A DNA stretch of 64,000 nucleotides, taken from positions 3,007 through 67,006 of the forward strand of contig JAJDYQ010000036.1 in NCBI GenBank assembly GCA_022825085.1, read 5' to 3'. The stretch comes from Gammaproteobacteria bacterium. GTDB taxonomy: Bacteria > Pseudomonadota > Gammaproteobacteria > JAJDYQ01. The notes beneath the pieces were generated by a model. The model was given only the letters and a program-made list of their open reading frames with translations. It made no database searches and had not been told where the DNA came from. Positions 6,337 to 52,768 of the stretch are shown here, piece after piece. The position numbers and the translations under genes were made by a program. Within the stretch, counting starts at the first letter, position 1. The number at the start of each line of letters is the position of its first letter.

Positions 6337-6349
6337 GAAATAGAACTTG

Positions 6350-6718
6350 CTAAAGCTCCGGATGCTTATGCCCGGCCGCCTTTAATGCAGCCAGATATTT
6401 CTGCCAGTTACTGTTCTGATTCGTGCCCAGGCTATAAAGCCAGTCCCATGAAAAAATACCGGAATCATGTCCATCATCGAACACAATGCAGACCGCATAG
6501 CGGCCTACGGGTTCGATTTTCTCGATTTTTATATCCCTCTTGCCGATTTGTAATTTGTAAGATTCTGGCCCATGGCCCTGGACCTCTGCGGAAGGCGAAT
6601 GCGTGCGCAGATATTCTGCTGACAGTTCAAATACACTGCCTTCATCAAAACTGACGGTGAGCAACCTTGTTGCAGCATCATAATTCAATTCGGTAGGAAC
6701 AGGGCTATTGCTGGACAT
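6350..6718 (-). CDS. DUF971 (gamma-butyrobetaine hydroxylase-like N-terminal domain) protein
   Basis: 122 aa with the typical DUF971 pattern ([19 protein letters not shown]...[27 protein letters not shown]). Confidence 0.7.
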
Positions 6719-6729
6719 AATGACTGGCT

Positions 6730-35368: not shown

Positions 35369-36523
35369 TCATGTGTCCGCTTCCAGCAGATGGAACATGA
35401 GGGAGGTGGTCAGGTTGTCTGCGGCATGTGACCCGCGCATTGCCAGTTTGGAATTGGTATGCGCTGACTCGACAATGTTTGTGAATTGTTGCTGTTGCTT
35501 CAGTGGGGGCACGGTAATCCAGATATTCTTTATGTCTTTATCGGATACTGCCGGGTAGTTTGCTCCCCTGACTTGTGACGATATTGTTTCTACGAAAAAC
35601 GGTGATGTGACATGGCTGAATAGATAAAGTGGTTCTATCAATTTACGGTTCGCTCGCAGTACGCAAAAGCCGGTTGATGCAATTTCACGATTCAGTTCAT
35701 CTGGCACGATTGCAACGGCATTCAGATTCGGTCTGACCGACGATACAAGGATATCATCCGTCCGAATTTCCTTTCTTGCCCGACTTGGCGCATCTTTGCC
35801 GAGCAGCAATCGGGTGGCGGCAATTCTCTTCTGAACGGTGTCAATACCGGAAATATCGACATAGCGAAATTGAGCTGAGGGAGTTTCTCCGGGGTTGCGG
35901 GTCTCTGTCTGCACGCAAACCTGCCCTATCCTGCATTTCGTCCACCCCATCGGATTGTCTGTCGGGTTGCCGAACATTTTGATGAACAGGGCCGGGATGA
36001 ATTCCTGCAGGCGTTCCTGTGCCTGTTTGCGCAGCCGCTCGATTTTGGCCGCCCGGTTCAGGATGTTGACGATGCGGCGTTGTTCGTTGAGCGGGGGGAG
36101 GGGAATTTCCAGATTTTGAACATCCCGCAACGTAATGCCCTTGACAGTCGCGCCTGTTCCCTTGTGTTCGATCTCTGGGCCAAGGTACTTCAGCGACCAG
36201 AACAAGAACTCGGGTAGCAGGCCTTCAGCAGGCACAACGGCCTTGATGTCTTGGTTTATCGCAAGATCGACATCGGCTATTGCGACTTTACCTAGACCTA
36301 CCCTTGTTACAAGGAGAACAGTCCCCGACGAAACAATTTTCGACGCCGAGTTATCCAGCCCTTCCTGAGAAATGAACTCATCCGTTTGCGAGATTCGATC
36401 TGCTCGAAAATCCTTCACGGTCGCCCACGGAATGTGTCCATTCCAATATTGCCGAATTTTCCGGGATGGTGTTCCCCCGCCCATGAATTGGCAAATCTCA
36501 CCGAGTGAGGTCGTTGATATCAT
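35369..36523 (-). CDS. hsdS: Type I restriction-modification specificity subunit HsdS
   Basis: 384 aa with two TRD halves, each ending in a conserved helix (PLPPLNEQRRIVNIL... / VPPLKQQQQFTNIV...). There is a 4-nt overlap with hsdM. Confidence 0.9.
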   Translation of the reverse strand: MISTTSLGEICQFMGGGTPSRKIRQYWNGHIPWATVKDFRADRISQTDEFISQEGLDNSASKIVSSGTVLLVTRVGLGKVAIADVDLAINQDIKAVVPAEGLLPEFLFWSLKYLGPEIEHKGTGATVKGITLRDVQNLEIPLPPLNEQRRIVNILNRAAKIERLRKQAQERLQEFIPALFIKMFGNPTDNPMGWTKCRIGQVCVQTETRNPGETPSAQFRYVDISGIDTVQKRIAATRLLLGKDAPSRARKEIRTDDILVSSVRPNLNAVAIVPDELNREIASTGFCVLRANRKLIEPLYLFSHVTSPFFVETISSQVRGANYPAVSDKDIKNIWITVPPLKQQQQFTNIVESAHTNSKLAMRGSHAADNLTTSLMFHLLEADT

Positions 36524-38151: not shown

Positions 38152-40277
38152 TATCCTTTCTCCATGCGGGAATCGTCCGGTTTGCCAAACACGGCGGCAT
38201 TGAGTTCGGTGATCAGCCGCTCCAGGGATTGCTCGCCGCCGAACACGCGCCGCGCCTGGTCGTAGCCTCCGAGTGCAGTGAACGGGTGACCGTCAAAGTC
38301 CCATTCGCCAAACGCATCCATCATGTCTGTCTTGACACGGCTGCCGATCAGCCCTACCCAGCGCATCTGTTCGGTGTTGAATCCTTTGTGTTCGCTTCGC
38401 CATGCCTCAAATTTCATGCCGATGGCAGCAGCGCGTGCTTCGTGTTCCGGCGGACGCACGATCCGACCGCTTTCGTCCAGAGTGAGCCAGTCGCGGCTCA
38501 TCGGGTCGATGTGGTCGTTGACATCCAGGGTCAGCAGTTGGTGGGGTTCACCGGGGGTGTAGCCGGGTTGCGTTTCGTGGATATGACTGCCGCTGACTGC
38601 TGCATCGTCGTCGCCGTGAAAATCGGTCACGCCGACAAAGTCGAAGATCGTGAATCCGGTCTTGTCGATATGCGGTGCCTTGCGGGTGCCGCGCCCGCGC
38701 ATCTGCCGGTACAGGATGGTGCTGCGGGTGAATCGCGCCATGACCAGATTGACCACTTCCGGGCAGTCAAAGCCGGTATCGAGCATGTTGACGCTGACCA
38801 GGATTTGCGGGAATTCTTCTTCCTTGAAGCGTTTGATGATGGCACCGGGATCGGGTGCCGGACCCCCACCGACATCGCTGACCACGAAGTCGGCGTAGCG
38901 CGTCGCCGGATGTGGTTTTTTGTCGGCGAAGTGTGCATCGAACATTTCTGCCAGTGTTTCGGCATGTCGTTTGGTCACCGCGAACACGATGGTTTTGCCC
39001 CAGGTGGGCCAGCGTCGGATGCCGTCGCGGCCCATGAAGCCCTTTTCGTGCGCATCACGAAATTCCCTTACCAGGGCGCGGTTGCGTTCGGGGATGGTGA
39101 ACCGGCGTTCCAGGGTGCGCGGATCGACCGTGATGGTGTCCTGGCCCAAACTGGCGAATTGTTTTTCAAATTCGGTACGGGTCTGTTCGTCCATCGCGCT
39201 CCAGTCGAGTTCGTTGCGGCTGACCGGGAATCCACCTTCGGCAGCGGTTTTGACGGTCATGGCCCGGTATATGCGGTAGGGGACCAGATGGCCTGCATGG
39301 ATGGCGGTGCGCAGGGTGTAGCGGTAGGTCGGTTCGGTGAGTTCGAAAAATCGCAGTGTGTCGCGCACGAATTGACTGTCTTCCGGGTCGGGGGAGTGGT
39401 CGGCCTCCGCGGTGCAGGGGGTGGCGGTCAGGCCGAGTTGAACGCCATCGAAATGTCGCAGTACGCCACTCCACTGGCCGTAGATGGAGCGGTGGCATTC
39501 GTCGGTGATGACCAGATCGAAGTAGCCGGGGGAGAGGTTGCGGTAGTCTGCAATCAGGGTTTGCAGGGTGGCGATGGTGATGCGTTTGGCGCGGTCAAAG
39601 CCACGACCGGGGCGCAGCACATGGCAGGGGTAGTCGCGCAGGTGGTCGGTAAAGGCGTCTTCGGCCTGCCGCGCCAGGGCGATGCGATCCACCAGAAACA
39701 GTACGCGGGTGATCCTGCCTGCCTCGAACAGTCGCTTGATGAAGGCGGTCGCTGTGCGGGTTTTGCCGGTGCCTGTCGCCATTTCGACCAGCAGTTTGCG
39801 TCGTCCACGGGAGACTTCGGCAGACAGTGCTTCAATACATTCTATCTGGTAGTCGCGGTTGACGATTTGCCGGTCGATGGCGATTGTGGCGAGGTCGCGG
39901 CGGGTCTGTCGTGCTGCGATGTGCCGTTCGAGATCGTCCTGGGCATAGAAGCCAGCGATTGGGCGGGCGTGGGCGTCTGTTTCCCGGTCCAGAAATCGCA
40001 CTTCTTCGCCATTTGACAGGAATACGAAGGGTACATTGAGCTGTTCGGCATAGTGGCACCCCTGGTCCTGCGCTGTTATGGGGTCGGTGCTGGCCCGCTT
40101 GGCTTCCAGTATTGCCATGGGCCGGCCCTGTCGGTCGCACAGCACATAGTCGGCCTGGGTGCCGTCGGGCAGGGTGTGTTCGAATAACACGCTGGAGCCG
40201 TCAGTCAGGTTCCAGCTTGCATCCTTGAGCAGGGCATCGATCTTGACTCGTGCGAAGGCTTCGGTGGTGCCGCTCAT
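38151..40277 (-). CDS. hsdR: Type I restriction endonuclease subunit HsdR (short form)
   Basis: 708 aa. N-terminal PD-(D/E)xK nuclease (DYVL...ILEAKRAS), Walker A MATGTGKT, DEAD-box ITDECHRS, helicase C motifs (MRGRGTR). Confidence 0.9.
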   Translation of the reverse strand: MSGTTEAFARVKIDALLKDASWNLTDGSSVLFEHTLPDGTQADYVLCDRQGRPMAILEAKRASTDPITAQDQGCHYAEQLNVPFVFLSNGEEVRFLDRETDAHARPIAGFYAQDDLERHIAARQTRRDLATIAIDRQIVNRDYQIECIEALSAEVSRGRRKLLVEMATGTGKTRTATAFIKRLFEAGRITRVLFLVDRIALARQAEDAFTDHLRDYPCHVLRPGRGFDRAKRITIATLQTLIADYRNLSPGYFDLVITDECHRSIYGQWSGVLRHFDGVQLGLTATPCTAEADHSPDPEDSQFVRDTLRFFELTEPTYRYTLRTAIHAGHLVPYRIYRAMTVKTAAEGGFPVSRNELDWSAMDEQTRTEFEKQFASLGQDTITVDPRTLERRFTIPERNRALVREFRDAHEKGFMGRDGIRRWPTWGKTIVFAVTKRHAETLAEMFDAHFADKKPHPATRYADFVVSDVGGGPAPDPGAIIKRFKEEEFPQILVSVNMLDTGFDCPEVVNLVMARFTRSTILYRQMRGRGTRKAPHIDKTGFTIFDFVGVTDFHGDDDAAVSGSHIHETQPGYTPGEPHQLLTLDVNDHIDPMSRDWLTLDESGRIVRPPEHEARAAAIGMKFEAWRSEHKGFNTEQMRWVGLIGSRVKTDMMDAFGEWDFDGHPFTALGGYDQARRVFGGEQSLERLITELNAAVFGKPDDSRMEKG

Positions 40278-40699
40278 GTTGCCGTCCAGGGATCGATGAC
40301 TTCTACATCCATGCCCTCGAAGTCGCGGATGTTGCGGGTGACCACTGCCATTTCCTGCGAACGTGCGATGGCAGCTATCTGGCAGTCGATTGGTGCGATG
40401 GGGCGACCGATGGCGCGGTGCATGGCGGCAATGTCTGCATATTGGCAGGCTGCAGCGCGGTCGAAAGAAAGGATTCGACCATTGAAATCTTCTCGCAAAA
40501 TTGCCTCGACCACGAGAGCAAGCGCATCCCGGCGTCGGCCCATAGGTAGAGTCGCAACACCATAGCGCAACTCCGCTTCACCAACCGCCGAGAAATATAA
40601 ATCTATCGCTGAACGTTCCTCGACCCACGCCTCTACCGCCGGATGCAGCGACGGACGCAGGAGTTCGGATACGACATTGGTGTCAAGCAGCCAGGACAC
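40274..40699 (-). CDS. vapC: PIN-domain ribonuclease toxin VapC (FitB-like)
   Basis: LLDTNVVSEL...AVGEAELRYG...DCQIAAIA...VVTRNIRDF, PIN acidic residues. I place the start at GTG 40699, 10 nt after the vapB stop. The stop overlaps the hsdR ATG (ATGA). Confidence 0.85.
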   Translation of the reverse strand: MSWLLDTNVVSELLRPSLHPAVEAWVEERSAIDLYFSAVGEAELRYGVATLPMGRRRDALALVVEAILREDFNGRILSFDRAAACQYADIAAMHRAIGRPIAPIDCQIAAIARSQEMAVVTRNIRDFEGMDVEVIDPWTAT

Positions 40700-40709
40700 G
40701 GTCGTATGC

Positions 40710-40958
40710 TTAATCGAAGGAAGGCAGTTCACGCCCCGGGCCGCGTGGTGGCAACTCCAGGTCCACTCCACCGAGGGGCTCGATCCGGGCTCGGATGATA
40801 CTCACAAGATTCCGGCAATCCGGTTTGTGACCGACAGCTTGGCGGAGGATCTGTCGGGCTTCCTCTTCCATTGAGCGGTGATGTTCCGCAGCCTGCACGC
40901 GCAGACGCGCCTTTACATCGTCGTCGAGATTGCGAATCGTGATGCTTGCCATGGTCAT
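40710..40958 (-). CDS. vapB: Antitoxin VapB (FitA/Arc-like ribbon-helix-helix)
   Basis: 82 aa, MASITIRNLDDDVKARLRVQAAEHHRSMEEEARQILR, a typical RHH antitoxin N-terminus. Confidence 0.8.
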   Translation of the reverse strand: MTMASITIRNLDDDVKARLRVQAAEHHRSMEEEARQILRQAVGHKPDCRNLVSIIRARIEPLGGVDLELPPRGPGRELPSFD

Positions 40959-43022: not shown

Positions 43023-43037
43023 TTTGCCACATCCTGT

Positions 43038-43142
43038 TTTCAGATGGTGATTCTCTTCTTCGAGTTCTCTGGGATAGGCTGTCATTGAGGTATCCATGCC
43101 ATTCAACTCGGAGAGCTGCTTCTGAACAGTGGCATAAATAAG
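43038..43142 (-). mobile_element. Degenerate fragment of an IS3-family orfA transposase
   Basis: Minus-strand translation LIYATVQKQLSELNGMDTSMTAYPRELEEENHHLK resembles the conserved FYTWRKKYGGMEVSEAKRLKALEDENARLK segment of IS3/IS407 OrfA. It is truncated on both sides. Confidence 0.35.
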
Positions 43143-43186
43143 TGGCTGTATTTTTTCTCGGATGCCTGACGCCTGACTGAGTAGCG

Positions 43187-43237
43187 GCAATGGAGCGCAG
43201 CAGAGTTGCCGTCCGAGTGCAGCGCCTTGTTAATTGC
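43187..43237 (-). repeat. Cassette-junction repeat, copy A (left-hand attC-like half only)
   Basis: Plus strand GCAATGGAGCGCAGCAGAGTTGCCGTCCGAGTGCAGCGCCTTGTTAATTGC. It matches 46727-46768 in blocks of 22 and 14 nt. The TAA of the TTAAC core is the stop codon of the methyltransferase. Confidence 0.4.
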
Positions 43238-44780
43238 TGGCTCTGGCTTTGTACTTCGATTTTGATTCTGCAATACTCAGCTCGATCTGCCCTGTCAGGG
43301 TATCCACTTGTGCCGCTCCATGACTCTGGTATTGAGCAAGCTCACCAAGCTCTTTTGCAACTTCTTTTATTGATAGCCTCCTCAATATTTGTGTTGTTAT
43401 GGGGCGCTTTTCATCCCAGAAAATGATTGAATCAAAAAATTCCTGCGCAGGTTCGGATGTTATTAAGTGATAAACAAATTCCGCCTCTTTTTTTGTGTCA
43501 AATGACAAAAAGTTGACTGTATCGTCAAATACGACGGTTTTTCCGCTTAGTGGCCCTACAAGATTAAACTTTAGTCTTTTGTATAGACCCGATATTGCAA
43601 CTTTCCATCTTTTGAAGGAATATTCTCCAATACCGAAAACTGAAAAATCAGGCTTGTTTTTGTAAATGGAGCTTTTCCGATTATCAAGATATTCTCGGTG
43701 GCTCATCAAATATTCCCATGTATTCGGCGCACTATTCTTTATAATTGCAGTATCTTCTCCAACATGCCTCTGTGTTATTAAAACCACTTTTCGGTATGCC
43801 CCTATTCTCCCGTTCCCTACATCCGAGCTTTTTAATAACGGATAAATATACTCGTCTTCACATTCTATATTTTCGCCAAGCCCATTCTTGTATCCATTAT
43901 TAGATGGCTCTAACTCCATTATTTTTGAGCAGTCATGTTTTATACCCGACCTCCAAATATATTTCGGATCTTGTCCTCTCAGGTGTCTCCATTTTTCATA
44001 TTTGGTTACATCATTGACTACATACCCGTCTCTTTCTCCAATAATATGTGAAGACATTGAGGAGTCCAGGGATTTATATACTTCACAATCCGCATTTCCT
44101 GTATCTGTTGTCAAAATGAACAGACATGCTTCCACTGATGCACCAAAATATGTTTTGGCATTGACAGGGTATATATGACCGAAGAAACGATGATTTGGGT
44201 TTTGCCTTACTTGCCGCATGACTTTTCTGGCAACAGAGTATTTACAAAGAAATGCTATTGCGCCTTCTCTTTGCGAGAGCCATTTCACATGTTGCAACAG
44301 CATCCATTCTGAAATATCAAAATTTGCGGAACCTGTAATAGCTTCGATGCCTTTCCTGTTTTGAAAGTTAGATTTATCTGGCAGATTCTGGCTATTGAGC
44401 AACCCTAGTTCGCTGCTTGTCACCCAGGGTGGATTGCCAATTATGAGAAGGTATCCAGGCAATCCAGCAATCACATTATCCCAATTTGTACTAAAGAAAT
44501 CTGCCTCATTGACTATCGGACTATTTTTACCAGAATCCGTCCCTGACAATGATCTCGCTTCTTTTACATAAAGAGGATTAATTTCAAAACCAAGAATTTT
44601 TGATTGTTTAAACCCTTCATGAGAGGCATGAATAAATGCGCCTTTTCCACACGTTGGTTCTATAATAACATCCGGATTTATTCCATGATTTCGTTTCAGA
44701 ATATCAACAACCTTTCTGGCTAAATCAATGGGGGTTTGAAAATCTCCAAACTGCCATTTATTAATGGTCTTCTTTGCCAT
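43230..44780 (-). CDS. Type II N6-adenine DNA methyltransferase (gamma class, TaqI/Eco57I-like)
   Basis: 516 aa with motif I IIEPTCGKGAFI upstream of motif IV IIGNPPW. The C-terminal half is a presumed target-recognition domain. Confidence 0.85.
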   Translation of the reverse strand: MAKKTINKWQFGDFQTPIDLARKVVDILKRNHGINPDVIIEPTCGKGAFIHASHEGFKQSKILGFEINPLYVKEARSLSGTDSGKNSPIVNEADFFSTNWDNVIAGLPGYLLIIGNPPWVTSSELGLLNSQNLPDKSNFQNRKGIEAITGSANFDISEWMLLQHVKWLSQREGAIAFLCKYSVARKVMRQVRQNPNHRFFGHIYPVNAKTYFGASVEACLFILTTDTGNADCEVYKSLDSSMSSHIIGERDGYVVNDVTKYEKWRHLRGQDPKYIWRSGIKHDCSKIMELEPSNNGYKNGLGENIECEDEYIYPLLKSSDVGNGRIGAYRKVVLITQRHVGEDTAIIKNSAPNTWEYLMSHREYLDNRKSSIYKNKPDFSVFGIGEYSFKRWKVAISGLYKRLKFNLVGPLSGKTVVFDDTVNFLSFDTKKEAEFVYHLITSEPAQEFFDSIIFWDEKRPITTQILRRLSIKEVAKELGELAQYQSHGAAQVDTLTGQIELSIAESKSKYKARASN

Positions 44781-44783
44781 AAC

Positions 44784-45449
44784 TCATCGAATCCTTGTGA
44801 TGCCAGATACCTCTCCAGCTTTCTGTATAATTCGACTATACTGAAGTCGCCACTGAAGAGCATTTGATATCGTCAAGTATCCTTGATTTGGTGGAGATTC
44901 CAGGATTTTGTCTGCAAGCTGTTCTGCACCAATTTCATCTACAGGTAAATTTCGTTCTATGATAAATGCTATTACATCATCCTTGTTTCCTTCTCTTTCA
45001 AGTATCTCCAGAAGCCCTTTGGTGGTTTGAAAATCTGCTGTGCGCTCTTTTTCTGCAAAAATCGTATGCTGCATAGTTAGCCTTCCGGTTCTTCTTTGGT
45101 CATCGTCAGATTTTTCATATACAAACACAAGCAGATGATAGTCCAATCCGAATATTTTCTGTGACGCAGACTTGAAAGGACATGATGACTGAGGTTGTTT
45201 AATACTTGTTGCTTTTATATCAACTCCAAGATCAGGCAAGTCTATCCCCGATGCAGAATTTCCTTGCTCATATTCATATTCTTCTGCGAGATAAGAAGTA
45301 AACTTCTGCTCCAGATATGTGCCCACAGCTTTACCGTCTGTCACGCCATAGAGAGAAGGTTCATCATGCGAGGTCTCCATGCCGGCGAAATTTGACGCCT
45401 CTTCTTGAAGCGCTTCTATTGTCAGTATTTGTTTCATATGTTTCCCCAT
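44784..45449 (-). CDS. Putative type II restriction endonuclease (PD-(D/E)xK), partner of the 516-aa methyltransferase
   Basis: 221 aa ending 3 nt before the MTase start. Candidate catalytic motif SGIDLPDLGVDIKAT (D...D-x-K). The ATG at 45437 has the better RBS (GGGGAAAC). Confidence 0.55.
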   Translation of the reverse strand: MGKHMKQILTIEALQEEASNFAGMETSHDEPSLYGVTDGKAVGTYLEQKFTSYLAEEYEYEQGNSASGIDLPDLGVDIKATSIKQPQSSCPFKSASQKIFGLDYHLLVFVYEKSDDDQRRTGRLTMQHTIFAEKERTADFQTTKGLLEILEREGNKDDVIAFIIERNLPVDEIGAEQLADKILESPPNQGYLTISNALQWRLQYSRIIQKAGEVSGITRIR

Positions 45450-45459
45450 GTTTTTTTGC

Positions 45460-45553
45460 GGCCAATGTCTGGTTCAGCCGTGCACCGAAGGCGCGTTGGA
45501 TGGAGGGGTGCATGCAGCCTAGCCTTGAAACGAACTGGAACCATTTGTTATGC
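45460..45553 (-). repeat. attC-like imperfect palindrome (junction E)
   Basis: Minus strand: GCATAAC-AAATG-GTTCCAG...CTGAAC-CAGAC-ATTGGCC. L'' GTTCCAG pairs with L' CTGAAC, leaving one unpaired C, and both spacers are 5 nt. R' has A instead of the canonical G. The TAA in R'' is the stop of the DUF3800 gene. Confidence 0.45.
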
Positions 45554-46678
45554 ATTCATTATAATGGAGTTATACATCAGTTGTTGACCAATAAACTGAA
45601 TGTATTCATGCATGCCTTCCAGCAAGGGTATTCCTTCCTTCGACCGAGAGTGTAACTCTTGCAGGAGTACCGCGTTTCGTTGGGCTTCCAATTCAGAGAG
45701 ATCAATATAATTGATGTCAGGGAATAAGCTCCCCGGGACTATAATTTCAGAGATATACTTTCTCCATTTTAAGGCATGTTTGTCTGAGTTATTGGTTATG
45801 GCGAAAATGGAAGCTGCTGCTATAGTATCGGCTAGTTGGATGCCATGATAGGTTTTTGAGGCTACCAGCTTAATTGAGCCAGATAAATTAAATGTAATAG
45901 GATGGTCGTCACCAGCAATGCTTAAATATTTTTTATCTTCACGGTTGATCATCACTTTGTATAGCTGCTGATCATGGTGTAATGGTTTAGCATCATCACA
46001 AATGGCCGTGAGCTGTTCATATTCTTGTCCCCACGCTGCTAACAATGTGAACAAAGAGCTATCAGTCAAGTCTAATATCCATTTATCTAGCCCATTATCA
46101 GCCAATGAGTCTAGCTCTTGTTTTATAGATGACTTTTTGTTTTCGGCAAACTCCCGAATCTGTACCAATATTGGTGAATTTTCTGGATGAGTAGAGCTGC
46201 TGAAGATATTTTCTAGGTTTACTTCTTCATCGCTCCTCATCAATGATTCAAACTCTAAAAGTATCTCTTCTGCGCCGGCTCCTCGCGTCGCCAACTCGAT
46301 ATATAAAATGTTTGCAATAAATCTATGGAAATTTATGTCATAAAACATGGAGCTTTGTTCAGATATGCATGGCTCAAAAATGTACTCAAAAAATTTGCTA
46401 GCTAATGCATACTTTTTATTAGAAAGAGATATTTTTATCCTTCCTCTAAATTTTCTCATTATTTCGGATATTGCCTTCCTTCCTTTGCTGGATTTTACAA
46501 GCTGCCTTCCCTTTAATTCACTGTTCTGTATGCTATATTTTTTGATTAGGTACTCAACAAAGTCTTTTGCTTCGTCGTCATTTGTTGCAACGGAACTGTA
46601 TGAAAAAAATTCTTGATTTGGACTTAGGAGGTTATTTCCTGTAAAACCTGATTCATCAAAATATATTTTTTGAGACAT
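45548..46678 (-). CDS. DUF3800 domain protein
   Basis: 376 aa with the N-terminus MSQKIYFDESGFTGNNLL (the DUF3800 hallmark xYxDESG). A single-gene block between two junction repeats. Confidence 0.7.
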   Translation of the reverse strand: MSQKIYFDESGFTGNNLLSPNQEFFSYSSVATNDDEAKDFVEYLIKKYSIQNSELKGRQLVKSSKGRKAISEIMRKFRGRIKISLSNKKYALASKFFEYIFEPCISEQSSMFYDINFHRFIANILYIELATRGAGAEEILLEFESLMRSDEEVNLENIFSSSTHPENSPILVQIREFAENKKSSIKQELDSLADNGLDKWILDLTDSSLFTLLAAWGQEYEQLTAICDDAKPLHHDQQLYKVMINREDKKYLSIAGDDHPITFNLSGSIKLVASKTYHGIQLADTIAAASIFAITNNSDKHALKWRKYISEIIVPGSLFPDINYIDLSELEAQRNAVLLQELHSRSKEGIPLLEGMHEYIQFIGQQLMYNSIIMNA

Positions 46679-46726
46679 CTTGAACTCTATGGTTGTTTGA
46701 ATGCATAATCCCCAAGCTCACCGATG

Positions 46727-46768
46727 GCAATAGAACGCAGCAGAGTTGTCGACAGCACCTTGTTAGGT
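46727..46768 (-). repeat. Cassette-junction repeat, copy B (left-hand attC-like half only)
   Basis: Plus strand GCAATAGAACGCAGCAGAGTTGTCGACAGCACCTTGTTAGGTG. On the minus strand ACCTAAC fits RYYYAAC, and its TAA is the stop codon of the MTase-glycosylase gene. Confidence 0.4.
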
Positions 46769-48730
46769 GTTTTGATTGCGATAGCGATAAAGATACCAAG
46801 CGCCAATGCTTTTATATGGTTCCCAGCGTTTTGATATTTTTATAATTGAATTAATATCATCTTGCGGAACTTTGTAAACACTGCTTATTATCTTCTTTAG
46901 TGCCAAGTCATGTTGAGGGAACACATTAAGCCTAGCGAGCCCAAAAAGCAGGTACATATCTACCGTCCAATCTCCGATGCCTTTTATTTTTTTCAACTCA
47001 TAGCGAACTACATCATCACTTTCAGTTTGTAAATCTCTAAGTATCAGGCTTTTATCATTTATCTTGGTGCTGAGGTCATAAATATACTCATACTTTCTAT
47101 CTGATATGCCAGATGATTTAACATTTTCTCTGATTATTTTAAGGAAATTACATGCTGAGATGCTTTTGCCGCTGAATAATCCCTTAAATTTCTTGATTAT
47201 TGAGTCGGCGGCTAATTTTGATAACTGCTGACTAATGATCGCATCAACAAGAAATTCAAACCCGGTATGATTGCCAATCAAGTTGCATGGCCCTACCTCA
47301 TTTATTATTTTAGCTAATTTTTTATCTTCTTTGTGCAAGTAAAAGATAATATCTGCATAACTGCTTTCTTCTACGCCATTCGATGTGTTACTCAATCGAG
47401 AGCTCGAAGCATTGTTTCTGAGAAACCATTCTTGAGAAAATCTTCTTAGCTCATCTGGAGAGCATTGTGGGAGAAAAAAGGAAAAATCGTAAATAGTACT
47501 ATGATTCGGATTTGGGTAACTTGGGGAATGTTCATTATCCATATCTAGTGAACCAAAAAGAGTTTGCTGCTTGCTATTAATCCTTTTGCCAAGAACCTTT
47601 TTGGGGGTGACAAAATCTCCCATAGGTTCCAGTCCTTTCTCAAAGCGATTAAGAGTCGTCTTAATCGCCTCAATACTGTTGTCAACTCCAATCCAGTTCC
47701 TCTGCATTTTATCTGCCACTGCAAGGGTAGTGCCTGACCCTGCAAAGCAATCAAAAATTAAATCTCCAGGATTAGATGATGCTGATACTATTCGTTTCAA
47801 TAAGTCTGGATTCTTCTCGGTAGGATACCCGGTTATTTTCACGTTTTGATTGTGCGCATCACGAAAGTCTAGCCAGATATCCTGTACTCCAACGCCAGAG
47901 TGTTCATCCAAGTATATTTTTCTTCGAGGATTTCCGTTTTTTGACCAGTAAATTTCGCCTCTGACATCCATTTCATCTAATAACTTAGGCGTATACTGCC
48001 AATGTTTGCCAGGCGGTGGCATTTTTCCTCGCCAAGGCTTACCCGTTTCACCATTTCGTGTACCGGGTGCATGAACTGGAACCTTCATAAACCTGCGACC
48101 TGTATTTTCTTCGACATATTGATATTCTTTCTGGCTTTCTTCTGATAAGGGTACAGTCTGTTTGTTCCATATGTAATTTCTGGTTTTCGTATAGAATAGG
48201 ATGAAGTCTGCAATATTCCCATATGCTTTACGAGTGTAATTTTTCGGATTGCATTTTTTACGGATAATTAAATTTCTATAGTTTTCTGATCCAAATATCT
48301 CATCCATTATAATTTTCATTTCGAAAATCATTTTTTCATCTAAGTGCAAATATATAGAACCATTATTAGATAGGAGTTTATGCAGTAGAATAAGACGTGC
48401 CCGCAAGAATTCTACGAAAGCCGCGCCAGACAATGTGTCATCATATGCTTGCGATTGTTTTCGAGAAAGAAAACGACTTTGGGTTGCAAATGGTGGATCA
48501 ATATAGATAAGACTAATTTTTCCACAAACTGCCTTATCATCCAAAAGCGTCCTTAACACATCAAGATTATCTCCAAAATACAGCCTTTTCCCGGTTGTGC
48601 TTGAATTGAACGCATCAAAACAGGGGGGTTGTATTTTTAGCAATTCTTCTTCGCTTATCTTATCTTTGTAGGCAAGATGTACCTTGCCATTTAATTTTGC
48701 GTTATCTTTCTTTGGAATTCCTGTTGCCAT
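46763..48730 (-). CDS. DNA methyltransferase (beta class, N6A/N4C type) fused to a C-terminal AlkA-like HhH-GPD DNA glycosylase domain
   Basis: 655 aa. Motif IV SLIYIDPPF lies near the N-terminus and motif I DLIFDCFAGSGTT at about residue 325. The last ~190 aa read LKKIKGIGDWTVDMYLLFGLARLNVFPQHDLALKK (HhH + Gly-rich loop + Asp), as in AlkA/3-methyladenine glycosylase II. Confidence 0.8.
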   Translation of the reverse strand: MATGIPKKDNAKLNGKVHLAYKDKISEEELLKIQPPCFDAFNSSTTGKRLYFGDNLDVLRTLLDDKAVCGKISLIYIDPPFATQSRFLSRKQSQAYDDTLSGAAFVEFLRARLILLHKLLSNNGSIYLHLDEKMIFEMKIIMDEIFGSENYRNLIIRKKCNPKNYTRKAYGNIADFILFYTKTRNYIWNKQTVPLSEESQKEYQYVEENTGRRFMKVPVHAPGTRNGETGKPWRGKMPPPGKHWQYTPKLLDEMDVRGEIYWSKNGNPRRKIYLDEHSGVGVQDIWLDFRDAHNQNVKITGYPTEKNPDLLKRIVSASSNPGDLIFDCFAGSGTTLAVADKMQRNWIGVDNSIEAIKTTLNRFEKGLEPMGDFVTPKKVLGKRINSKQQTLFGSLDMDNEHSPSYPNPNHSTIYDFSFFLPQCSPDELRRFSQEWFLRNNASSSRLSNTSNGVEESSYADIIFYLHKEDKKLAKIINEVGPCNLIGNHTGFEFLVDAIISQQLSKLAADSIIKKFKGLFSGKSISACNFLKIIRENVKSSGISDRKYEYIYDLSTKINDKSLILRDLQTESDDVVRYELKKIKGIGDWTVDMYLLFGLARLNVFPQHDLALKKIISSVYKVPQDDINSIIKISKRWEPYKSIGAWYLYRYRNQNT

Positions 48731-48743
48731 TTCTCACCTATGC

Positions 48744-49613
48744 CTAAGATTGTAACCAATCTTCCGTGATTCGTTCTGAGAACATTCTCAATGTCACAAC
48801 TTTTACCTTTCCATCCCATGAGTTCTCAATATAGGCATAGTCACGCCACATAGAACCGAGAAGTAAACCTGGGCCGTCATTTAGGAATATGACCTTGAGG
48901 TTCATGCCTTTAGATTCGGCATAACCAAGAATCTCACTGGCACAATCACGATATTGGCCAGTTCGGTCATCTTCTTGTGCACCCCCTCTATCTGAATCGT
49001 AGCGAGTAAGGCCTACTGCGACTGGATTGCCATCATTAATCAATACAAAGTCTACTGGGCGGTCAGGCTTTGGATAATCGCCAAATAATTCGCCTAGAAT
49101 TACATCTTTTCCTGCTCGTTCTGGCCCAATTATATCTAAATGTGAATATTGCTCTCGAACGATATTAAATAGCCGTTCTGTCAGATCGTAACCTTTCTTA
49201 CCCCTATCCTTATACTCCCAGAGTACGGCGCATAATGCCTCATCTGGCATTGGACGAGATTTAAATTTTGACTGCACTTCAGTAATTGGTCGAAATCTGT
49301 AACCAAATTGATCGCATATGCTTTGGGCGGCAGATTTCTTTTTCAACATTTCCACAGGTGTTTCCGGGCTAGCATATTTTCTGAACACTCGATATAGCTG
49401 TATTCGCATCCACTGTGGTTTCGTTTCTGATATTTCCAGAAATAAATTGGTAGAGGAATGAGATGACTCCAATAAATGCCCAAATGTAACCAACACAGGT
49501 TTATATAATTCACATGCTCGTGGTAACACATCAGGGTAATACTCTCCAGTGGATAAAGTAATCCAAATATGTCCATCTTCCTGATAATCGCCAAATGATT
49601 TTTCTCTATTCAA
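48744..49613 (-). CDS. Hypothetical protein in the endonuclease position of the MTase-glycosylase cassette
   Basis: 289 aa with a TTG start, ending 13 nt before the MTase-glycosylase start. I cannot name a motif with confidence (PVDFVLINDGNPVAVGLTRYDSDRGGAQEDD is the most conserved-looking stretch). Confidence 0.4.
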   Translation of the reverse strand: MNREKSFGDYQEDGHIWITLSTGEYYPDVLPRACELYKPVLVTFGHLLESSHSSTNLFLEISETKPQWMRIQLYRVFRKYASPETPVEMLKKKSAAQSICDQFGYRFRPITEVQSKFKSRPMPDEALCAVLWEYKDRGKKGYDLTERLFNIVREQYSHLDIIGPERAGKDVILGELFGDYPKPDRPVDFVLINDGNPVAVGLTRYDSDRGGAQEDDRTGQYRDCASEILGYAESKGMNLKVIFLNDGPGLLLGSMWRDYAYIENSWDGKVKVVTLRMFSERITEDWLQS

Positions 49614-49643
49614 TTCAAGCTCTATCCTCTGGTTTTATATGCC

Positions 49644-49729
49644 TAGCAACCATATTAAGGGGCGACTCACCGCGAAGCGGTGAGACATCCCAGCAGCCAA
49701 AGGTTGTGCCTTGAATTATTTGTTAAATT
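49644..49729 (-). repeat. attC-like imperfect palindrome (junction C)
   Basis: Minus strand: ATTTAAC-AAATA-ATTCAAGG...CCTTAAT-ATG-GTTGCTA. ATTCAAGG pairs with CCTTAAT, leaving one unpaired C. A perfect 8-bp hairpin CTCACCGC/GCGGTGAG lies in the centre (49666-49684). The right spacer is shorter than canonical. Confidence 0.4.
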
Positions 49730-49730
49730 C

Positions 49731-50105
49731 TTAATCAATGGATCTTCCAAGTAGCTTCGAAATTAAACTTACCAAGCTGCATTCTTCCCGGCGAGCGTTA
49801 CTGCCTAAGTGGTAATTTCTTACTGCGAAATACAGGCCAATGAGGCCTGTGGCTATGCCGACCCACTGAAGCCAATGCAGGCGACGAGCAAAGGCTGCTT
49901 CCAGTATTGGGTAGTGCATATTGCTTCCTTGCTCTTGGAGAATTGACCCTATCCAAGATGGCAACACGAAGTAAAAGGTGACAAATGATATGCCTCCGAG
50001 CCAAAGAGCGCCTGACCAGCTTGCCTTTGATCCGATAACGGCTACATCTCGAACTATTGATGAGGCATAGCTTCTTCGTCTGTATCTATGACGGTATCCC
50101 ATCAT
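49731..50105 (-). CDS. Hypothetical small membrane protein (first cassette)
   Basis: 124 aa with a basic N-terminus (YRHRYRRRSY) and two clear TM helices. RBS AAGGAAGG precedes the ATG. Confidence 0.4.
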   Translation of the reverse strand: MMGYRHRYRRRSYASSIVRDVAVIGSKASWSGALWLGGISFVTFYFVLPSWIGSILQEQGSNMHYPILEAAFARRLHWLQWVGIATGLIGLYFAVRNYHLGSNARREECSLVSLISKLLGRSID

Positions 50106-50124
50106 CCTTCCTTGGCTTGCTTGA

Positions 50125-50195
50125 GCTTAACGACCGAGTTCAGCCGGGACGGCACGCGAAATGAGCCGGATGCCGGTTGGAACGATTGGTTCTAT
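50125..50195 (-). repeat. attC-like imperfect palindrome (junction D), best match to the canonical layout
   Basis: Minus strand: ATAGAAC-CAATC-GTTCCAACCGG...CCGGCTGAAC-TCGGTC-GTTAAGC. R' fits GTTRRRY. L''/L' pair with unpaired bases. About 70 nt in total, starting ~59 nt after the dctP stop and ending 20 nt before the next ORF. Confidence 0.5.
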
Positions 50196-50253
50196 GGCAT
50201 CCGGCTGATGCGATGCAAAGGGCCAGCCTTTCAGGTCAGTTCATGCCCGGTGC

Positions 50254-51458: not shown

Positions 51459-51640
51459 TTATATCGGTTGCAAGTCGGCATAGGTGATCACCAGCCATTT
51501 CGGGCCGGCCTCGGCAAAATGGACTTCAATACGCGCATGTGGCCCGGCACCTTCCATATTGGCCACCATGCGCCAGATTTTCTGTGGTTTATCCGCTGGC
51601 CCAGCCTGCAGCACCGCTGTTGCGTCTGATCGACTAAAAA
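51459..51640 (-). pseudogene. Duplicated fragment of the uvrD 3' end
   Basis: 51460-51562 is almost identical to 53129-53231 (two mismatches seen), and similarity decays over the next ~50-80 nt. It encodes ...NMEGAGPHARIEVHFAEAGPKWLVITYADLQPI, the same C-terminus as the intact UvrD. Confidence 0.7.
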
Positions 51641-51790: not shown

Positions 51791-52768
51791 TTGAAAATGA
51801 CAGACGTAAAAGGTCCATTTATCTTTGTCGCGATAGTGATCGTGGGTTGTCTTGGTGCTGGTGTCGCGCTTGCTACCTTCACCGAACAGGTGACCGCGCT
51901 GGTGGTCTCGGTAGTGCTTGCATGCGCTGTTTCCTCACTTCTCTACGGAATTCTGGGTGGTGTCTCACAGGCTGGCTTTAACTTTGGCCCACTCAGTATG
52001 GGTGGCAGCGCAGCAGTGCTTCTCGGCAGCGTTTTCCTGTTTAATAAGGCGCTGGAGCCGCAACTCAGAGAGATTCGCGATTATGATGTGGAGGTGGCTG
52101 TGGAGCAGGCTGTTGCCGCAGCGCTGCAGGATGCCAGGTTCGATTTCTACCAACACGTGGAACCGAACACGAACTGGTTTGCTGTCAACAGGGCGACGGC
52201 AGTTCCGACCAGGATTGAGTTTAGGGATCCTCAAGGGACTGGCTCTGTGAAAGTCGTGCATCGTCCATACAATCCGATCTTGCGTCTGAAGCTTGAGAAG
52301 CAAGACGAAAATTCCTTTTTGGTTCTCGGAGTCAATGCAGATTCGGGCGATAGCCTGGGTTATATCCAGTCGCAACATCTGAGCAATATCATTGGCTCAT
52401 CCGAGGAGCTTACGCCAAGCAGGATATATGGGCCTCAAAAACTGCATCTCTCGCTCGCAGGAGAACTTGCCGAGGATACGCCGCGGGAGTGGGGGTCAAG
52501 TGATCGCTGCCTGGGCAGAAGCCTGCCCATGCAGCTCCGTGTTGTCAGCTTCCGCCGAGGCTACGCAAACTACCAGGTCTCCGTCTGTGGCACCTCTGAT
52601 GATGACGCCGTCAACCACGAATCGAGCCTTTCCAAAGGTGATGCCGAACTCGTTAGCTTTGAAATCGAGGGCGAGACGCGGCATTTCCTCATTGCGGTGC
52701 TTGCGGCCAACCATACGGGGTCCCCGTTATGGTCTAGCTTCCTGGTCATCGAGATGGTGGAAAGCTGA
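51791..52768 (+). CDS. Hypothetical membrane protein (3 N-terminal TM helices + soluble domain) between the uvrD 3' repeats
   Basis: 325-aa ORF with a TTG start. I recognise no motif. Confidence 0.45.
   Translation: MKMTDVKGPFIFVAIVIVGCLGAGVALATFTEQVTALVVSVVLACAVSSLLYGILGGVSQAGFNFGPLSMGGSAAVLLGSVFLFNKALEPQLREIRDYDVEVAVEQAVAAALQDARFDFYQHVEPNTNWFAVNRATAVPTRIEFRDPQGTGSVKVVHRPYNPILRLKLEKQDENSFLVLGVNADSGDSLGYIQSQHLSNIIGSSEELTPSRIYGPQKLHLSLAGELAEDTPREWGSSDRCLGRSLPMQLRVVSFRRGYANYQVSVCGTSDDDAVNHESSLSKGDAELVSFEIEGETRHFLIAVLAANHTGSPLWSSFLVIEMVES

What the first reader, a model, noticed from the sequence alone, without database searches (positions are those of the whole stretch)
43023..50253. AT-rich run of four gene blocks separated by attC-like palindromes: an integron-type cassette array without integrase, loaded with defence genes
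Between dctM and dctP the composition drops visibly in GC, and all genes point the same way (minus strand). Each block is followed by a structure laid out like an integron attC site: R'' RYYYAAC, 5 nt, L'' ... L', 5-6 nt, R' GTTRRRY, with unpaired bases in L''. Reading the minus strand:
- 50195-50125: ATAGAAC-CAATC-GTTCCAACCGG...CCGGCTGAAC-TCGGTC-GTTAAGC.
- 45553-45460: GCATAAC-AAATG-GTTCCAG...CTGAAC-CAGAC-ATTGGCC, where R' has G->A and may be a fossil.
- 49729-49644: ATTTAAC-AAATA-ATTCAAGG...CCTTAAT-ATG-GTTGCTA, with a perfect central 8-bp hairpin.
Two further junctions (46768-46727 and 43237-43187) share a 22+14-nt repeat that begins with CCTAAC/ATTAAC. In both, the TAA is the stop codon of the preceding gene, a habit of cassette ORFs. 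I could not find a convincing right-hand half for these two. The next ORF starts 10-35 nt after each proposed R', and I spotted plausible RBSs for two of them (AAGGAAGG before 50105; GGGGAAAC before the alternative ATG at 45437). The cargo is a 124-aa membrane protein, a two-gene MTase-glycosylase module, a DUF3800 protein and a two-gene type II R-M. No intI or attI is present in the window, so this would be a CALIN. An IS3 orfA remnant sits at the distal end. Defence genes carried as integron cassettes are known from Vibrio chromosomal integrons. Here the array sits inside a split TRAP operon.
Basis: partly seen in the sequence, partly recalled or inferred. Interest (0 to 1): 0.7.

Follow-up and report, generated by a model that had tools for sequence, protein, structure and literature searches.

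The report
Decayed integron cassette array, no integrase
A 7.2-kb low-GC block between two transporter genes is a string of four integron gene cassettes (two restriction-modification systems, a DUF3800 gene and a small membrane protein) with no integrase nearby and mostly mutated recombination sites, which is a known kind of element and probably no longer mobile.

Summary
Window 43023-50253 is a low-GC block (35-43% against 55-60%) with all genes on the minus strand, lying between the convergent genes dctQM and dctP.

All five junctions are attC sites or attC relics.
- A covariance model I built from real class 1 attC sites ranks 50125-50192 first in the whole 64-kb window (24.7 bits).
- The other four junctions fail the model. 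Homologues of three of the four blocks are cassettes elsewhere, flanked by canonical attC sites and cut at the same G|TT points.
- The two "half" junctions belong to an attC family with intact members on Citrobacter and Geoalkalibacter plasmids.

Four of the five core GTT triplets are mutated (GCT, ATT, ATT, GTC), and none of the five folds like a real attC. I read the array as a fossil that lacks an integrase (CALIN-like) and is probably immobile.

Cargo: a BstEII-like REase with an MTase::HhH-GPD fusion, an NspV-family R-M pair, a DUF3800 gene and a 124-aa protein. No IntI is encoded in the window.

- The R' of the 49.7-kb site is GCTAGGC.
- The TRAP genes are convergent in relatives, so no operon is split.
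- The closest relative carries different cargo at the same spot.

This is a new member of a known kind, of modest interest.

The parts
50125..50195 (-). attC site c1, at the head of the array. Layout: R'' ATAGAAC, spacer CAATC, L'' GTT(C)CAACCGG ... L' CCGGCTGAAC, spacer TCGGTC, R' GTTAAGC. It is the only site with an intact GTT core.
   Evidence: Best covariance-model hit of the whole window in both models: R1 24.7 bits (E about 4e-4) and R2 18.2 bits. Left half p=1.8e-6 and right half p=3.6e-7 by weight matrix. R'' is degenerate and the MFE fold does not pair the R boxes.
49731..50105 (-). Cassette 1 ORF: a 124-aa hydrophobic protein of unknown function. The cassette spans 50130-49647.
   Evidence: ORF. 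No Pfam, NCBIfam or PADLOC hit. Distant homologues (30-39% identity) occur on plasmids, one within a run of small co-oriented ORFs each followed by TAACAAG.
49641..49728 (-). attC relic c3. Layout: R'' ATTTAAC, spacer AAATA, L'' ATT(C)AAGG ... L' CCTTAAT, spacer ATGGTT, R' GCTAGGC (core GTT mutated to GCT).
   Evidence: Half-site p=1.4e-5 (left) and 2.1e-5 (right). The R' register is fixed by homology: L163 and L164 share the cassette from (G/A)|TTAGGCATGG onward, 45/45 identical, but differ upstream. The window has G|CTAGGCATAT at that place. Not detected by R1 or R2.
48744..49613 (-). Cassette 2, gene 1: BstEII-like type II restriction endonuclease (289 aa).
   Evidence: PDB 9ibq (BstEII), E 1.4e-83 over residues 5-288. 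Thousands of homologues; the best 120 listed are 73-85% identical.
46763..48730 (-). Cassette 2, gene 2: a 655-aa N6/N4 DNA methyltransferase fused to a C-terminal HhH-GPD glycosylase-like domain. The cassette spans 49646-46709.
   Evidence: Pfam N6_N4_Mtase 1.1e-46 and HhH-GPD 1.4e-7. PADLOC MTase_II 6.8e-140. The same two-gene unit with a 652-655-aa fusion occurs in L163-L166.
46703..46768 (-). attC relic J4. Layout: R'' ACCTAAC (contains the MTase stop codon), spacer AAGGT, eroded L'' GCTGTCGACAA, L' TTGCCATCGGTGAGC, spacer TTGGGG, R' ATTATGC (core GTT mutated to ATT).
   Evidence: Aligns with intact family members on plasmids pGSUB1 and pLNU-11. R'' matches AATACCTAAC of the L163 cassette. 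TTATGC matches the start of DUF3800 cassettes elsewhere (GTTATGC, GTTATAC). No model hit and no fold (z +1.4).
45548..46678 (-). Cassette 3 ORF: DUF3800 protein (376 aa). The cassette spans 46708-45466.
   Evidence: Pfam DUF3800 2.7e-8. Homologues 50-67% identical are flanked by model-verified attC sites in at least 10 metagenome loci.
45460..45553 (-). attC relic c2. Layout: R'' GCATAAC (contains the DUF3800 stop codon), spacer AAATG, L'' GTT(C)CAG ... L' CTGAAC, spacer CAGAC, R' ATTGGCC (core GTT mutated to ATT).
   Evidence: Left half p=1.8e-6. AATGCATAACAAAT is identical to the end of the L098/L101 cassette. TTGGCCGCAAAAAAAC aligns with TTAGCTGCAAAAAC, which starts the NspV-type cassette in L157, L159 and L160; their upstream sequences are all unrelated. 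No model hit; fold z 0.0.
44784..45449 (-). Cassette 4, gene 1: NspV-family type II restriction endonuclease (221 aa).
   Evidence: PADLOC REase_II 1.7e-99. NCBIfam NF052465 6.5e-105. Homologues carry PF27258 NspV and are 83-85% identical in L157-L161.
43230..44780 (-). Cassette 4, gene 2: DNA methyltransferase (516 aa). The cassette spans 45465-43170.
   Evidence: PADLOC MTase_II 2.1e-167. Homologues are 70-77% identical, many with Pfam N6_Mtase, and always lie next to the NspV-type gene.
43164..43235 (-). attC relic J5. Layout: R'' AATTAAC (contains the MTase stop codon), spacer AAGGC, L'' GCTGCACTCGGACGGCAA, loop, TTGCCG plus eroded L' CTACTCAG, spacer TCAGGC, R' GTCAGGC (core GTT mutated to GTC).
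   Evidence: The left half is about 90% identical to attC sites on plasmids pGSUB1 (R1 28.4 bits) and pLNU-11. It is homologous to the attC after the same MTase in L159 and L160. Half-site p=2.9e-6 (left) and 1.5e-4 (right). No model hit; fold z +0.4.
43026..43163 (-). Tail of the block: a possible IS3-family orfA remnant that abuts the dctM stop codon.
   Evidence: Only weak support: tblastn E 0.03, 56% identity over 32 aa, to ISXac2-type IS3 transposases. No Pfam or NCBIfam hit.

Best explanation
Window 43023-50253 is a horizontally acquired, low-GC array of four integron gene cassettes, arranged head to tail on the minus strand.

Order along the minus strand: attC c1, a 124-aa membrane protein, c3, a BstEII-like R-M pair, J4, DUF3800, c2, an NspV-like R-M pair, J5.

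Each cassette has the canonical layout. It begins with TTRRRY, carries its ORF or ORFs, and ends in an attC whose R'' box holds or abuts the stop codon. The cassettes were once moved by an integron integrase that cuts between G and TT of the folded bottom strand.

Here there is no integrase or attI. Four of the five GTT cores carry a point mutation and the stems have eroded. [quoted passage not shown]

The ORFs are full length compared with their homologues, so they are probably still in use. Two of them are complete type II restriction-modification systems, which both defend the cell and resist their own loss.

Expression is inferred to come from read-through from dctP, which lies directly upstream on the same strand, and from promoters inside the R-M units.

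The array lies in the 3'-3' gap between the convergent genes dctQM and dctP. Related genomes hold different DNA, or almost none, at this spot.

- **Shown:** cassette homology and boundaries, absence of IntI in the window, the core mutations, the loss of folding, and the variable site.
- **Inferred:** immobility, the route of arrival, expression, and the defence function of the R-M pairs.
For: **Composition and orientation.** Low GC and one strand throughout.

**attC signal in the window**
- c1 is the top attC-model hit of the window in two models.
- In 1.4 Mb of unrelated loci the best hit was 24.2 bits, a single chance hit inside an ORF. That gives roughly one false positive per 1.4 Mb at this score.
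- A left-half attC matrix ranks c1, c2, J5 and c3 as the four best minus-strand positions in 64 kb.

**DUF3800 cassette.** Homologues in at least 10 metagenome loci have model-verified attC sites directly before and/or after the gene. 19 of the 20 hits are on the gene strand. The stop codon lies inside GCATAAC or GTATAAC, and the cassette starts at G|TTATGC or G|TTATAC, as in the window.

**NspV-type R-M cassette.** L159 has a 29-bit attC upstream and a canonical attC downstream. L157, L159, L160 and the window share sequence only from TT(A/G)GC(T/C)G onward.

**BstEII-type R-M cassette.** L163 and L164 are 45/45 identical after (G/A)|TTAGGC and unrelated before it. L163 has a canonical attC after AATACCTAAC.

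**J4 and J5.** Both align with intact attC sites on pGSUB1 (28.4 bits) and pLNU-11.

**Integrase.** No IntI1-like sequence in the window (tblastn E > 1).

**Decay.** The cores read GTT, GCT, ATT, ATT and GTC. Fold z-scores run from -2.1 to +1.4 with no R-box pairing, against canonical folds for plasmid and most environmental attC sites.

**ORFs intact.** Window versus homologues: 376 vs 376, 516 vs 516, 655 vs 655, and 289 vs 291 aa.

**Transcription.** No terminator-like site on the minus strand within the block.

**Variable site.** The closest relative, L002, breaks homology exactly at the two stop codons and carries other genes there. Other relatives have a 36-110 bp gap.

[quoted passage not shown] R-M and other defence cassettes in integrons are described (bioRxiv 10.1101/2024.07.02.601686 and 10.1101/2024.07.02.601719).
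Against: - Only one of the five junctions passes either covariance model. An IntegronFinder-style run might therefore report a lone attC or nothing.
- My models are home-made. They missed bona fide sites (the dfrA14 attC and the attC after the L163 methyltransferase), so their negatives are weak, and their calibration is rough.
- c1 has a degenerate R'' (ATAGAAC). A competing 10-bp hairpin wins its MFE fold.
- The 124-aa cassette has no close homologue in a verified cassette context.
- The matrix used includes attC sites of homologous cassettes. With class 1 sites only, J4 is not significant and the right half of c2 is weak.
- I could not search the rest of the genome for intI. Immobility has not been tested.
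Confidence: 0.85

Rival explanations
1. The array is still a working cluster of attC sites. An integron integrase encoded elsewhere in the genome, or arriving on a plasmid, can still excise and reshuffle these cassettes despite the sequence changes.
For: - c1 keeps GTT and scores within the range of real divergent attC sites (24.7 bits, against 22.8-31 for dfrA27, arr-3, gcuC and VIM-4).
- AAC of R'' is kept in all five sites, and the L-box 3-bp + bulge + 2-4-bp design is kept in c1, c2 and c3.
- Cury et al. note that half of such clusters lie in replicons or genomes that also encode IntI, and that integrases tolerate divergent sites (PMC4889954).
Against: - GTT is invariant in all 24 real sites I aligned and holds the cleavage point. 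It is mutated in four of the five sites here.
- None of the five bottom strands folds into the R/L-box hairpin in the MFE structure.
- With only one usable site, no cassette can be excised by attC x attC recombination.
- No intI is present in 64 kb.
Confidence: 0.1
2. This is an ordinary defence island brought in by an IS3-family element or by homologous recombination of the flanks. The attC-like motifs are chance look-alikes, terminators or other palindromes, with no integron ancestry.
For: - Four of five junctions fail the attC models and do not fold.
- There may be an IS3 remnant at one end.
- The same intergenic spot holds non-cassette DNA in relatives: DUF502 plus a REase-ARP gene in L002.
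- No attC hits were found in the other relatives' inserts.
Against: - Three of the four blocks have homologues bounded by canonical attC sites at the same nucleotide positions, with unrelated neighbours beyond G|TT.
- J4 and J5 are about 90% identical over 46-48 nt to model-verified attC sites on two unrelated plasmids.
- c1 is the best model hit in the window.
- The junctions have no T-tracts, and the scan calls no terminators on the gene strand.
- This rival may still be right about how the ready-made array arrived here.
Confidence: 0.04

Closest known systems
[quoted passage not shown] 2016, PMC4889954)
   Same: - Co-oriented cassettes, each an ORF or ORF pair followed by an attC.
- No intI nearby.
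- Five sites, which is about the reported average size.
- Cargo unrelated to antibiotic resistance.
- A possible insertion-sequence remnant next to it.
   Different: - Only one site is detectable by my covariance models.
- Four of the five sites have lost the invariant GTT and the hairpin. The block may therefore fall below the operational definition of at least two detectable attC sites, and is probably immobile.
Defence cassettes of sedentary chromosomal and mobile integrons (Darracq et al., bioRxiv 10.1101/2024.07.02.601686; Kieffer et al., bioRxiv 10.1101/2024.07.02.601719)
   Same: - Defence genes, including two-gene methyltransferase-nuclease units, are packaged as single cassettes.
- Those papers also counted cassettes in clusters that lack an integrase.
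   Different: - The two R-M cassettes here are large (2.3 and 2.9 kb), full-size type II systems. They are not the streamlined mini-systems emphasised in those papers.
- They sit outside any integron platform.
Cassette insertion at non-att genomic sites by IntI (attG sites and lone cassettes; Loot et al., bioRxiv 10.1101/2022.09.11.507474)
   Same: Cassettes lie in a chromosomal intergenic region away from attI. They are oriented so that a host gene (dctP) could drive their expression.
   Different: That work describes single cassette insertions. This is a five-site array headed by an attC, with no recognisable insertion scar. Arrival of the array as one piece is at least as likely.
attC family of plasmids pGSUB1 (Geoalkalibacter subterraneus, NZ_CP010312.1) and pLNU-11 (Citrobacter freundii, NZ_KX863568.1)
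   Same: J4 and J5 share the R''-AAGGC-GCTGCAC...TTGCCGCCGGTGAGC-TTGGTC-GTT layout. Identity is about 90% over 46-48 nt.
   Different: The plasmid copies have perfect stems and an intact GTT. J4 has lost its left arm and J5 its right arm, and both have lost the core.

Membership tests
CALIN / integron cassette array | At least two attC sites detectable by the attC covariance model, clustered within 4 kb of each other | tested here: inconclusive
   The official model was not available. My proxies R1 (10 sites) and R2 (24 sites) detect only c1 (24.7 and 18.2 bits). The same models miss verified attC sites (dfrA14 in L094 and the site after the L163 methyltransferase), so the four negatives are not decisive.
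CALIN / integron cassette array | No integron integrase gene nearby | tested here: met
   tblastn with IntI1 against the 64-kb window gives no hit better than E 1.5. The genes flanking the block are dctM and dctP.
CALIN / integron cassette array | attC layout of R'' (RYYYAAC), spacer, L'' ... L', spacer, R' (GTTRRRY), total length 57-141 nt | tested here: inconclusive
   All five junctions have the layout, with lengths of 66-94 nt, and AAC is kept in 5/5. GTT is kept only in c1. The others read GCT, ATT, ATT and GTC.
CALIN / integron cassette array | Bottom strand folds into an imperfect hairpin that pairs the R and L boxes, with extrahelical bases | tested here: not met
   MFE folds with DNA parameters pair none of the R-box positions in any of the five sites; z-scores run from -2.1 to +1.4. 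Most plasmid and environmental attC sites pair 5-7 R-box positions, with z of about -1.7 to -12. The L-box bulge design survives in c1, c2 and c3 by inspection only.
CALIN / integron cassette array | Cassettes are discrete mobile units: the same cassette is found elsewhere with different neighbours, with the break at G|TT | tested here: met
   - L163 versus L164: 45/45 identical after (G/A)|TTAGGC and unrelated before it.
- L157, L159, L160 and the window share sequence only after G|TTAGCT.
- DUF3800 cassettes share sequence only after G|TTATRC.
- Not shown for the 124-aa cassette.
CALIN / integron cassette array | Co-oriented ORFs, each followed by its attC, with the stop codon in or next to R'' | tested here: met
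   All ORFs are on the minus strand. The stops of MT655, DUF3800 and MT516 lie inside R'', and the stop of the 124-aa ORF lies 3 nt before R''.
Complete integron | intI, attI and the Pc promoter next to the first cassette | tested here: not met
   dctP, not intI, lies upstream of c1, and there is no IntI homologue in the window. attI and Pc cannot be searched without knowing the integron class.
Type II restriction-modification system (both R-M cassettes) | Adjacent restriction endonuclease and DNA methyltransferase genes of matching families | tested here: met
   - Pair 1: BstEII homologue (PDB 9ibq, 1.4e-83) next to an N6_N4 MTase.
- Pair 2: NspV-family REase (NF052465, 6.5e-105) next to an MTase_II (2.1e-167).
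- Both pairings are conserved in all homologous loci.
- Enzyme activity and recognition sites were not tested.
IS3-bounded transposon | IS3-family transposase genes or inverted repeats at the ends of the block | tested here: not met
   There is only a 32-aa stretch with E 0.03 to ISXac2-type transposases at one end. There is no profile hit and nothing at the dctP end.

The most novel reading that the evidence does not exclude
The loss of the GTT core in four of five sites may not be neutral decay. It could be the mark of selection for locking useful, addictive defence cassettes into the chromosome. If so, many cassette-derived defence islands would be invisible to attC-model-based tools. A second open point: DUF3800, shown here to be a widespread integron cassette gene, might be an uncharacterised defence gene.
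Probability: 0.12. Interest if true: 0.55.

Novelty: new member of a known kind. Interest (0 to 1): 0.33.

Why it matters
- **Undercounting.** Integron cassettes can end up as a fixed chromosomal island whose recombination sites have decayed below the reach of covariance-model tools. Only comparison with homologous cassettes reveals the origin. Surveys that rely on attC models probably undercount cassette-derived DNA, including defence genes.
- **Documented cassettes.** Two full-size type II R-M systems (BstEII-like and NspV-like) and a DUF3800 gene are documented as cassettes shared across distant bacteria.
- **A hotspot.** The gap between the convergent genes dctM and dctP is a recurrent site of variable DNA in this gammaproteobacterial lineage.
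- None of this changes how integrons are thought to work.

Tried and rejected
- **Rfam scan** of 40-54 kb at E <= 10: no hits. Rfam holds no general attC family, and the DUF3800 RNA motifs are absent here.
- **Metagenome scan with the single DUF3800 protein:** 54 pattern matches, no true relative. It succeeded only with an alignment of homologues.
- **Broader covariance model R2:** it did not rescue c2, c3, J4 or J5.
- **MFE folding as a stand-alone test:** it separates real attC sites from the window's junctions, but cannot tell a relic from a chance motif.
- **Terminator explanation** for the junctions: rejected, because the scan calls no terminator on the minus strand within the block.
- **'Split operon' idea:** rejected after relatives showed the convergent arrangement with a 36-110 bp gap.
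- **Other relatives' inserts** at the same site: no attC-model hits, so the site is not an integron platform.
- **Rest of the 73-kb source contig**, to look for intI: one look-up returned only related strains and the other found nothing.
- **IS3 remnant:** profile searches were negative and only a weak tblastn match was found.

Full report
**1. What is in the sequence**

Between the stop codon of dctM (43022, plus strand) and that of dctP (50254, minus strand) lie 7.2 kb. GC falls there to 0.34-0.44, against 0.53-0.63 on either side. All long ORFs in the block are on the minus strand.

Read 5' to 3' on the minus strand, the ORFs are:
- **124-aa hydrophobic protein** (49731-50105). It has no family hit.
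- **289-aa BstEII homologue** (48744-49613). It matches PDB 9ibq at E 1.4e-83.
- **655-aa methyltransferase fusion** (46763-48730). It combines N6_N4 methyltransferase and HhH-GPD domains.
- **DUF3800 protein** (45548-46678).
- **NspV-family restriction enzyme** (44784-45449). It matches PADLOC REase_II at 1.7e-99 and NCBIfam NF052465 at 6.5e-105.
- **516-aa methyltransferase** (43230-44780). It matches PADLOC MTase_II at 2.1e-167.

The shared junction repeat is 26 nt, 88% identical, and has no further copy in the window.

**2. The site**

Covariance and weight-matrix tests needed a background, so I fetched 80 loci around dctM relatives.

The closest relative, L002, is a complete 2.5-Mb gammaproteobacterial MAG (OZ243932.1). 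Its flanks are 91-95% identical in DNA. Homology stops exactly at the two stop codons. Between them L002 holds 2.6 kb of other genes: a DUF502 protein and a PF22558 REase-ARP gene with a partner.

In L004, L005, L007, L009, L024 and L040, dctM and dctP are convergent and only 36-110 bp apart. Other relatives have inserts of 0.3-7 kb at this spot.

The TRAP genes are therefore not a split operon. The block fills a 3'-3' intergenic gap that varies across this lineage.

**3. Testing the attC claim directly**

Rfam has no general attC family, and the Rfam scan found nothing. I therefore collected real attC sites from class 1 integrons on plasmids. I found them with IntI1, read them from annotated arrays, and built covariance model R1 from ten of them.

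*Model results*
- With all filters off, the best hit in the whole 64-kb window on either strand is 50125-50192 on the minus strand, which is c1. It scores 24.7 bits, E about 4e-4.
- attC sites the model had not seen scored 30.8 bits (VIM-4), 29.9 (gcuC) and 53-66 (aadA-like sites). The dfrA14 site was missed and dfrA15 reached only 11.8 bits.
- In 1.4 Mb of unrelated loci the best hit was 24.2 bits, inside a 723-aa ORF, and so a chance hit.
- c1 is therefore credible, at roughly one false positive per 1.4 Mb. The model clearly misses real, divergent sites.
- The other four junctions score below 7 bits.
- A broader model, R2, built from 24 sites, also finds only c1 (18.2 bits).

*Folding*

With DNA parameters, plasmid attC bottom strands give the canonical R/L-box hairpin with z of -2 to -9. 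Most environmental attC sites give z of -2 to -12. The five window junctions give -1.0, -2.1, +1.4, 0.0 and +0.4. None pairs its R boxes in the MFE structure. For c1, a neighbouring 10-bp hairpin wins the fold.

*Sequence-only half-site matrices*

These tell a different story from the models.
- With 24 real sites, the four best left-half scores on the minus strand of the whole window are c1, c2, J5 and c3, with p of 2e-6 to 1e-5 against 2.8 million background positions. J4 is weak on the left (p 6e-4).
- All five junctions have a right half with p <= 5e-4 at a distance of 66-94 nt.
- With class 1 sites only, c1 and the left half of c2 stay strong. c3 and J5 are moderate (about 1e-4). J4 is not significant.

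**4. Comparative evidence, which decides the matter**

*DUF3800.* The protein has hundreds of relatives 50-67% identical. In metagenome loci, R1 finds attC sites directly after the gene in L105 (36 bits), L106, L112, L115 and L121, and directly before it in L099, L105, L106 and L120. L129 and L130 have a site on both sides. 19 of the 20 hits are on the gene strand.

In these cassettes the stop codon lies inside GCATAAC or GTATAAC. The cassette starts at G|TTATGC or G|TTATAC, 20-35 nt before the start codon. The window has AATGCATAACAAAT at the gene's end, identical to L098 and L101. It has A|TTATGCATTC at the gene's start, compared with G|TTATGCATTT in L104.

*NspV-type R-M pair.* Relatives 70-85% identical always keep the two genes together. 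In L159 the pair is preceded by a 29-bit attC ending TTTGGTC-GTTAGCT-GCAAAAAC. It is followed by a canonical attC: AGCTAAC-AATGC-GCTGCACTCGGAC...GTTAACC. L157, L159, L160 and the window are 75-90% identical from TT(A/G)GC onward and unrelated before it. The window's R' is therefore ATTGGCC.

*BstEII-type pair.* L163-L165 carry the same two genes, including the 655-aa fusion. L163 and L164 are 45/45 identical after (G/A)|TTAGGC and unrelated before it. That is a cassette seen with two different neighbours. The window has G|CTAGGCAT at that place. This moves the R' of c3 to GCTAGGC (49647-49641), after a normal 6-nt spacer. After the methyltransferase, L163 has a well-paired attC beginning AATACCTAAC. 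The window has AACACCTAAC.

*J4 and J5.* A DNA search with the tail of the block found matches of about 90% identity, 46-48 nt long, on two plasmids: pGSUB1 of Geoalkalibacter and the IncP plasmid pLNU-11 of Citrobacter. There the sequence is a complete attC with a perfect stem and an intact core: CAAC-AAGGC-GCTGCACCGGCGGCAA-loop-TTGCCGCCGGTGAGC-TTGGTC-GTTGGGC. R1 gives 28.4 and 15.9 bits. In the alignment, J5 keeps the left arm and J4 keeps the right arm.

*The 124-aa cassette.* It has only distant plasmid homologues. One lies in a run of small co-oriented ORFs, each followed by TAACAAG, on a Pseudoalteromonas megaplasmid. R1 calls no attC there. This block is bounded by c1 and c3 but has no independent support.

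**5. Interpretation**

Three of the four blocks are integron cassettes by homology and by their exact boundaries. The head site passes an attC model. No IntI-like sequence is present in the window. The block is therefore a cassette array lacking an integrase, of the kind called CALIN (PMC4889954).

Its sites are decayed. The cores read GTT, GCT, ATT, ATT and GTC, whereas GTT is invariant in all 24 real sites I aligned. The stems no longer fold. With a single usable site, no cassette can be excised, so the array is most likely frozen. This step is an inference and was not tested.

At the divergence seen here (15-35% at the protein level from the nearest homologues), losing one base of a 3-nt motif in four of five sites is about what neutral drift would give. 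Selection need not be invoked.

The ORFs are as long as their homologues, so they are probably functional.

dctP lies directly upstream on the same strand, and no terminator-like site is called on that strand within the block. Read-through expression is plausible but inferred.

How the array reached this gap is open. Cury et al. list four routes: integration at a secondary site by an IntI encoded elsewhere, loss of intI, rearrangement, and an unknown cassette-creating mechanism. IntI-driven insertion outside att sites has been shown experimentally (bioRxiv 10.1101/2022.09.11.507474). I favour arrival as one piece, for two reasons: GC is uniformly low across all four cassettes, and the block starts with an attC rather than with a cassette. 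I cannot show this. The putative IS3 remnant at the tail is weakly supported.

**6. Comparison with what is known, and novelty**

Clusters of attC sites without an integrase are common. R-M and other defence genes in cassettes are documented.

What is particular here:
- the degree of decay, since four of five sites are invisible to covariance models;
- the size of the two R-M cassettes (2.3 and 2.9 kb);
- the location in a convergent intergenic hotspot.

I class it as a new member of a known kind, of modest interest.

**7. Limits**

- The attC models are home-made, with rough calibration and demonstrated false negatives.
- The matrix includes sites from homologous cassettes.
- I could not scan the rest of the genome for intI.
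- The recognition sites of the R-M systems are guessed from their namesakes.

Noticed in passing
window 51460-51608 and 53129-53281: The 3' end of the uvrD-like helicase gene is duplicated (about 91% identity over about 150 nt). The two copies bracket a 1.5-kb insert that carries a 325-aa ORF (51791-52768, plus strand) with no family hit. The relative L002 has the same arrangement. It looks like an old insertion into the gene's 3' end with a target duplication.
   Followed up: partly
window 35369-40958: A complete type I R-M system (HsdS 35369-36523, HsdM 36520-38151, HsdR 38151-40277) and a PIN/FitA-RHH toxin-antitoxin pair (40274-40958) lie immediately upstream of dctQ. The cassette array thus sits in a defence-rich neighbourhood that is shared with L002.
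   Followed up: yes
L002 11383-14007: The closest relative carries different cargo in the same dctM/dctP gap: a DUF502 membrane protein on the plus strand, and a PF22558 'REase-ARP' nuclease with a 287-aa partner on the minus strand. No attC hit was found. The gap is a recurrent site of variable DNA.
   Followed up: partly
window 46763-48730; L163 4371-6338; L166 5946-7904: The methyltransferase that partners the BstEII-like enzyme is always a 652-655-aa fusion of an N6_N4 MTase with a C-terminal HhH-GPD glycosylase-like domain. It may be a built-in repair activity for damage at methylated bases. Its function is untested.
   Followed up: partly
L099, L105, L106, L112, L115, L120, L121, L129, L130 (DUF3800 loci): DUF3800 genes are frequent integron cassettes. 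Weinberg et al. 2017 (PMC5737381) described 11 unrelated 'DUF3800 RNA motifs' near such genes. I did not check whether any of those motifs are attC sites. None is detected in the window by Rfam.
   Followed up: no
L167 (pLNU-11) 5980-7891: A group II intron reverse transcriptase gene (ltrA, 6566-7891) lies next to the J-family attC on this IncP plasmid. This recalls the known association of group IIC introns with attC sites.
   Followed up: no
window 50165-50205 (minus strand): A 10-bp hairpin, GCCGGATGCC...GGCATCCGGC, with a 21-nt loop encloses the R''-L'' half of c1. It is the most stable local structure (z -2.7 to -3.6). It may be a weak terminator of dctP or a leftover of an earlier structure.
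   Followed up: partly
L098/L101 5900-7190; L160/L161 after the methyltransferase: Other copies of the DUF3800 and NspV-type cassettes also sit outside arrays, with weakly folding or truncated attC sites (next to ArdA/RadC genes, and next to TPP-enzyme genes). Fossilised single cassettes of these families may therefore be common.
   Followed up: partly
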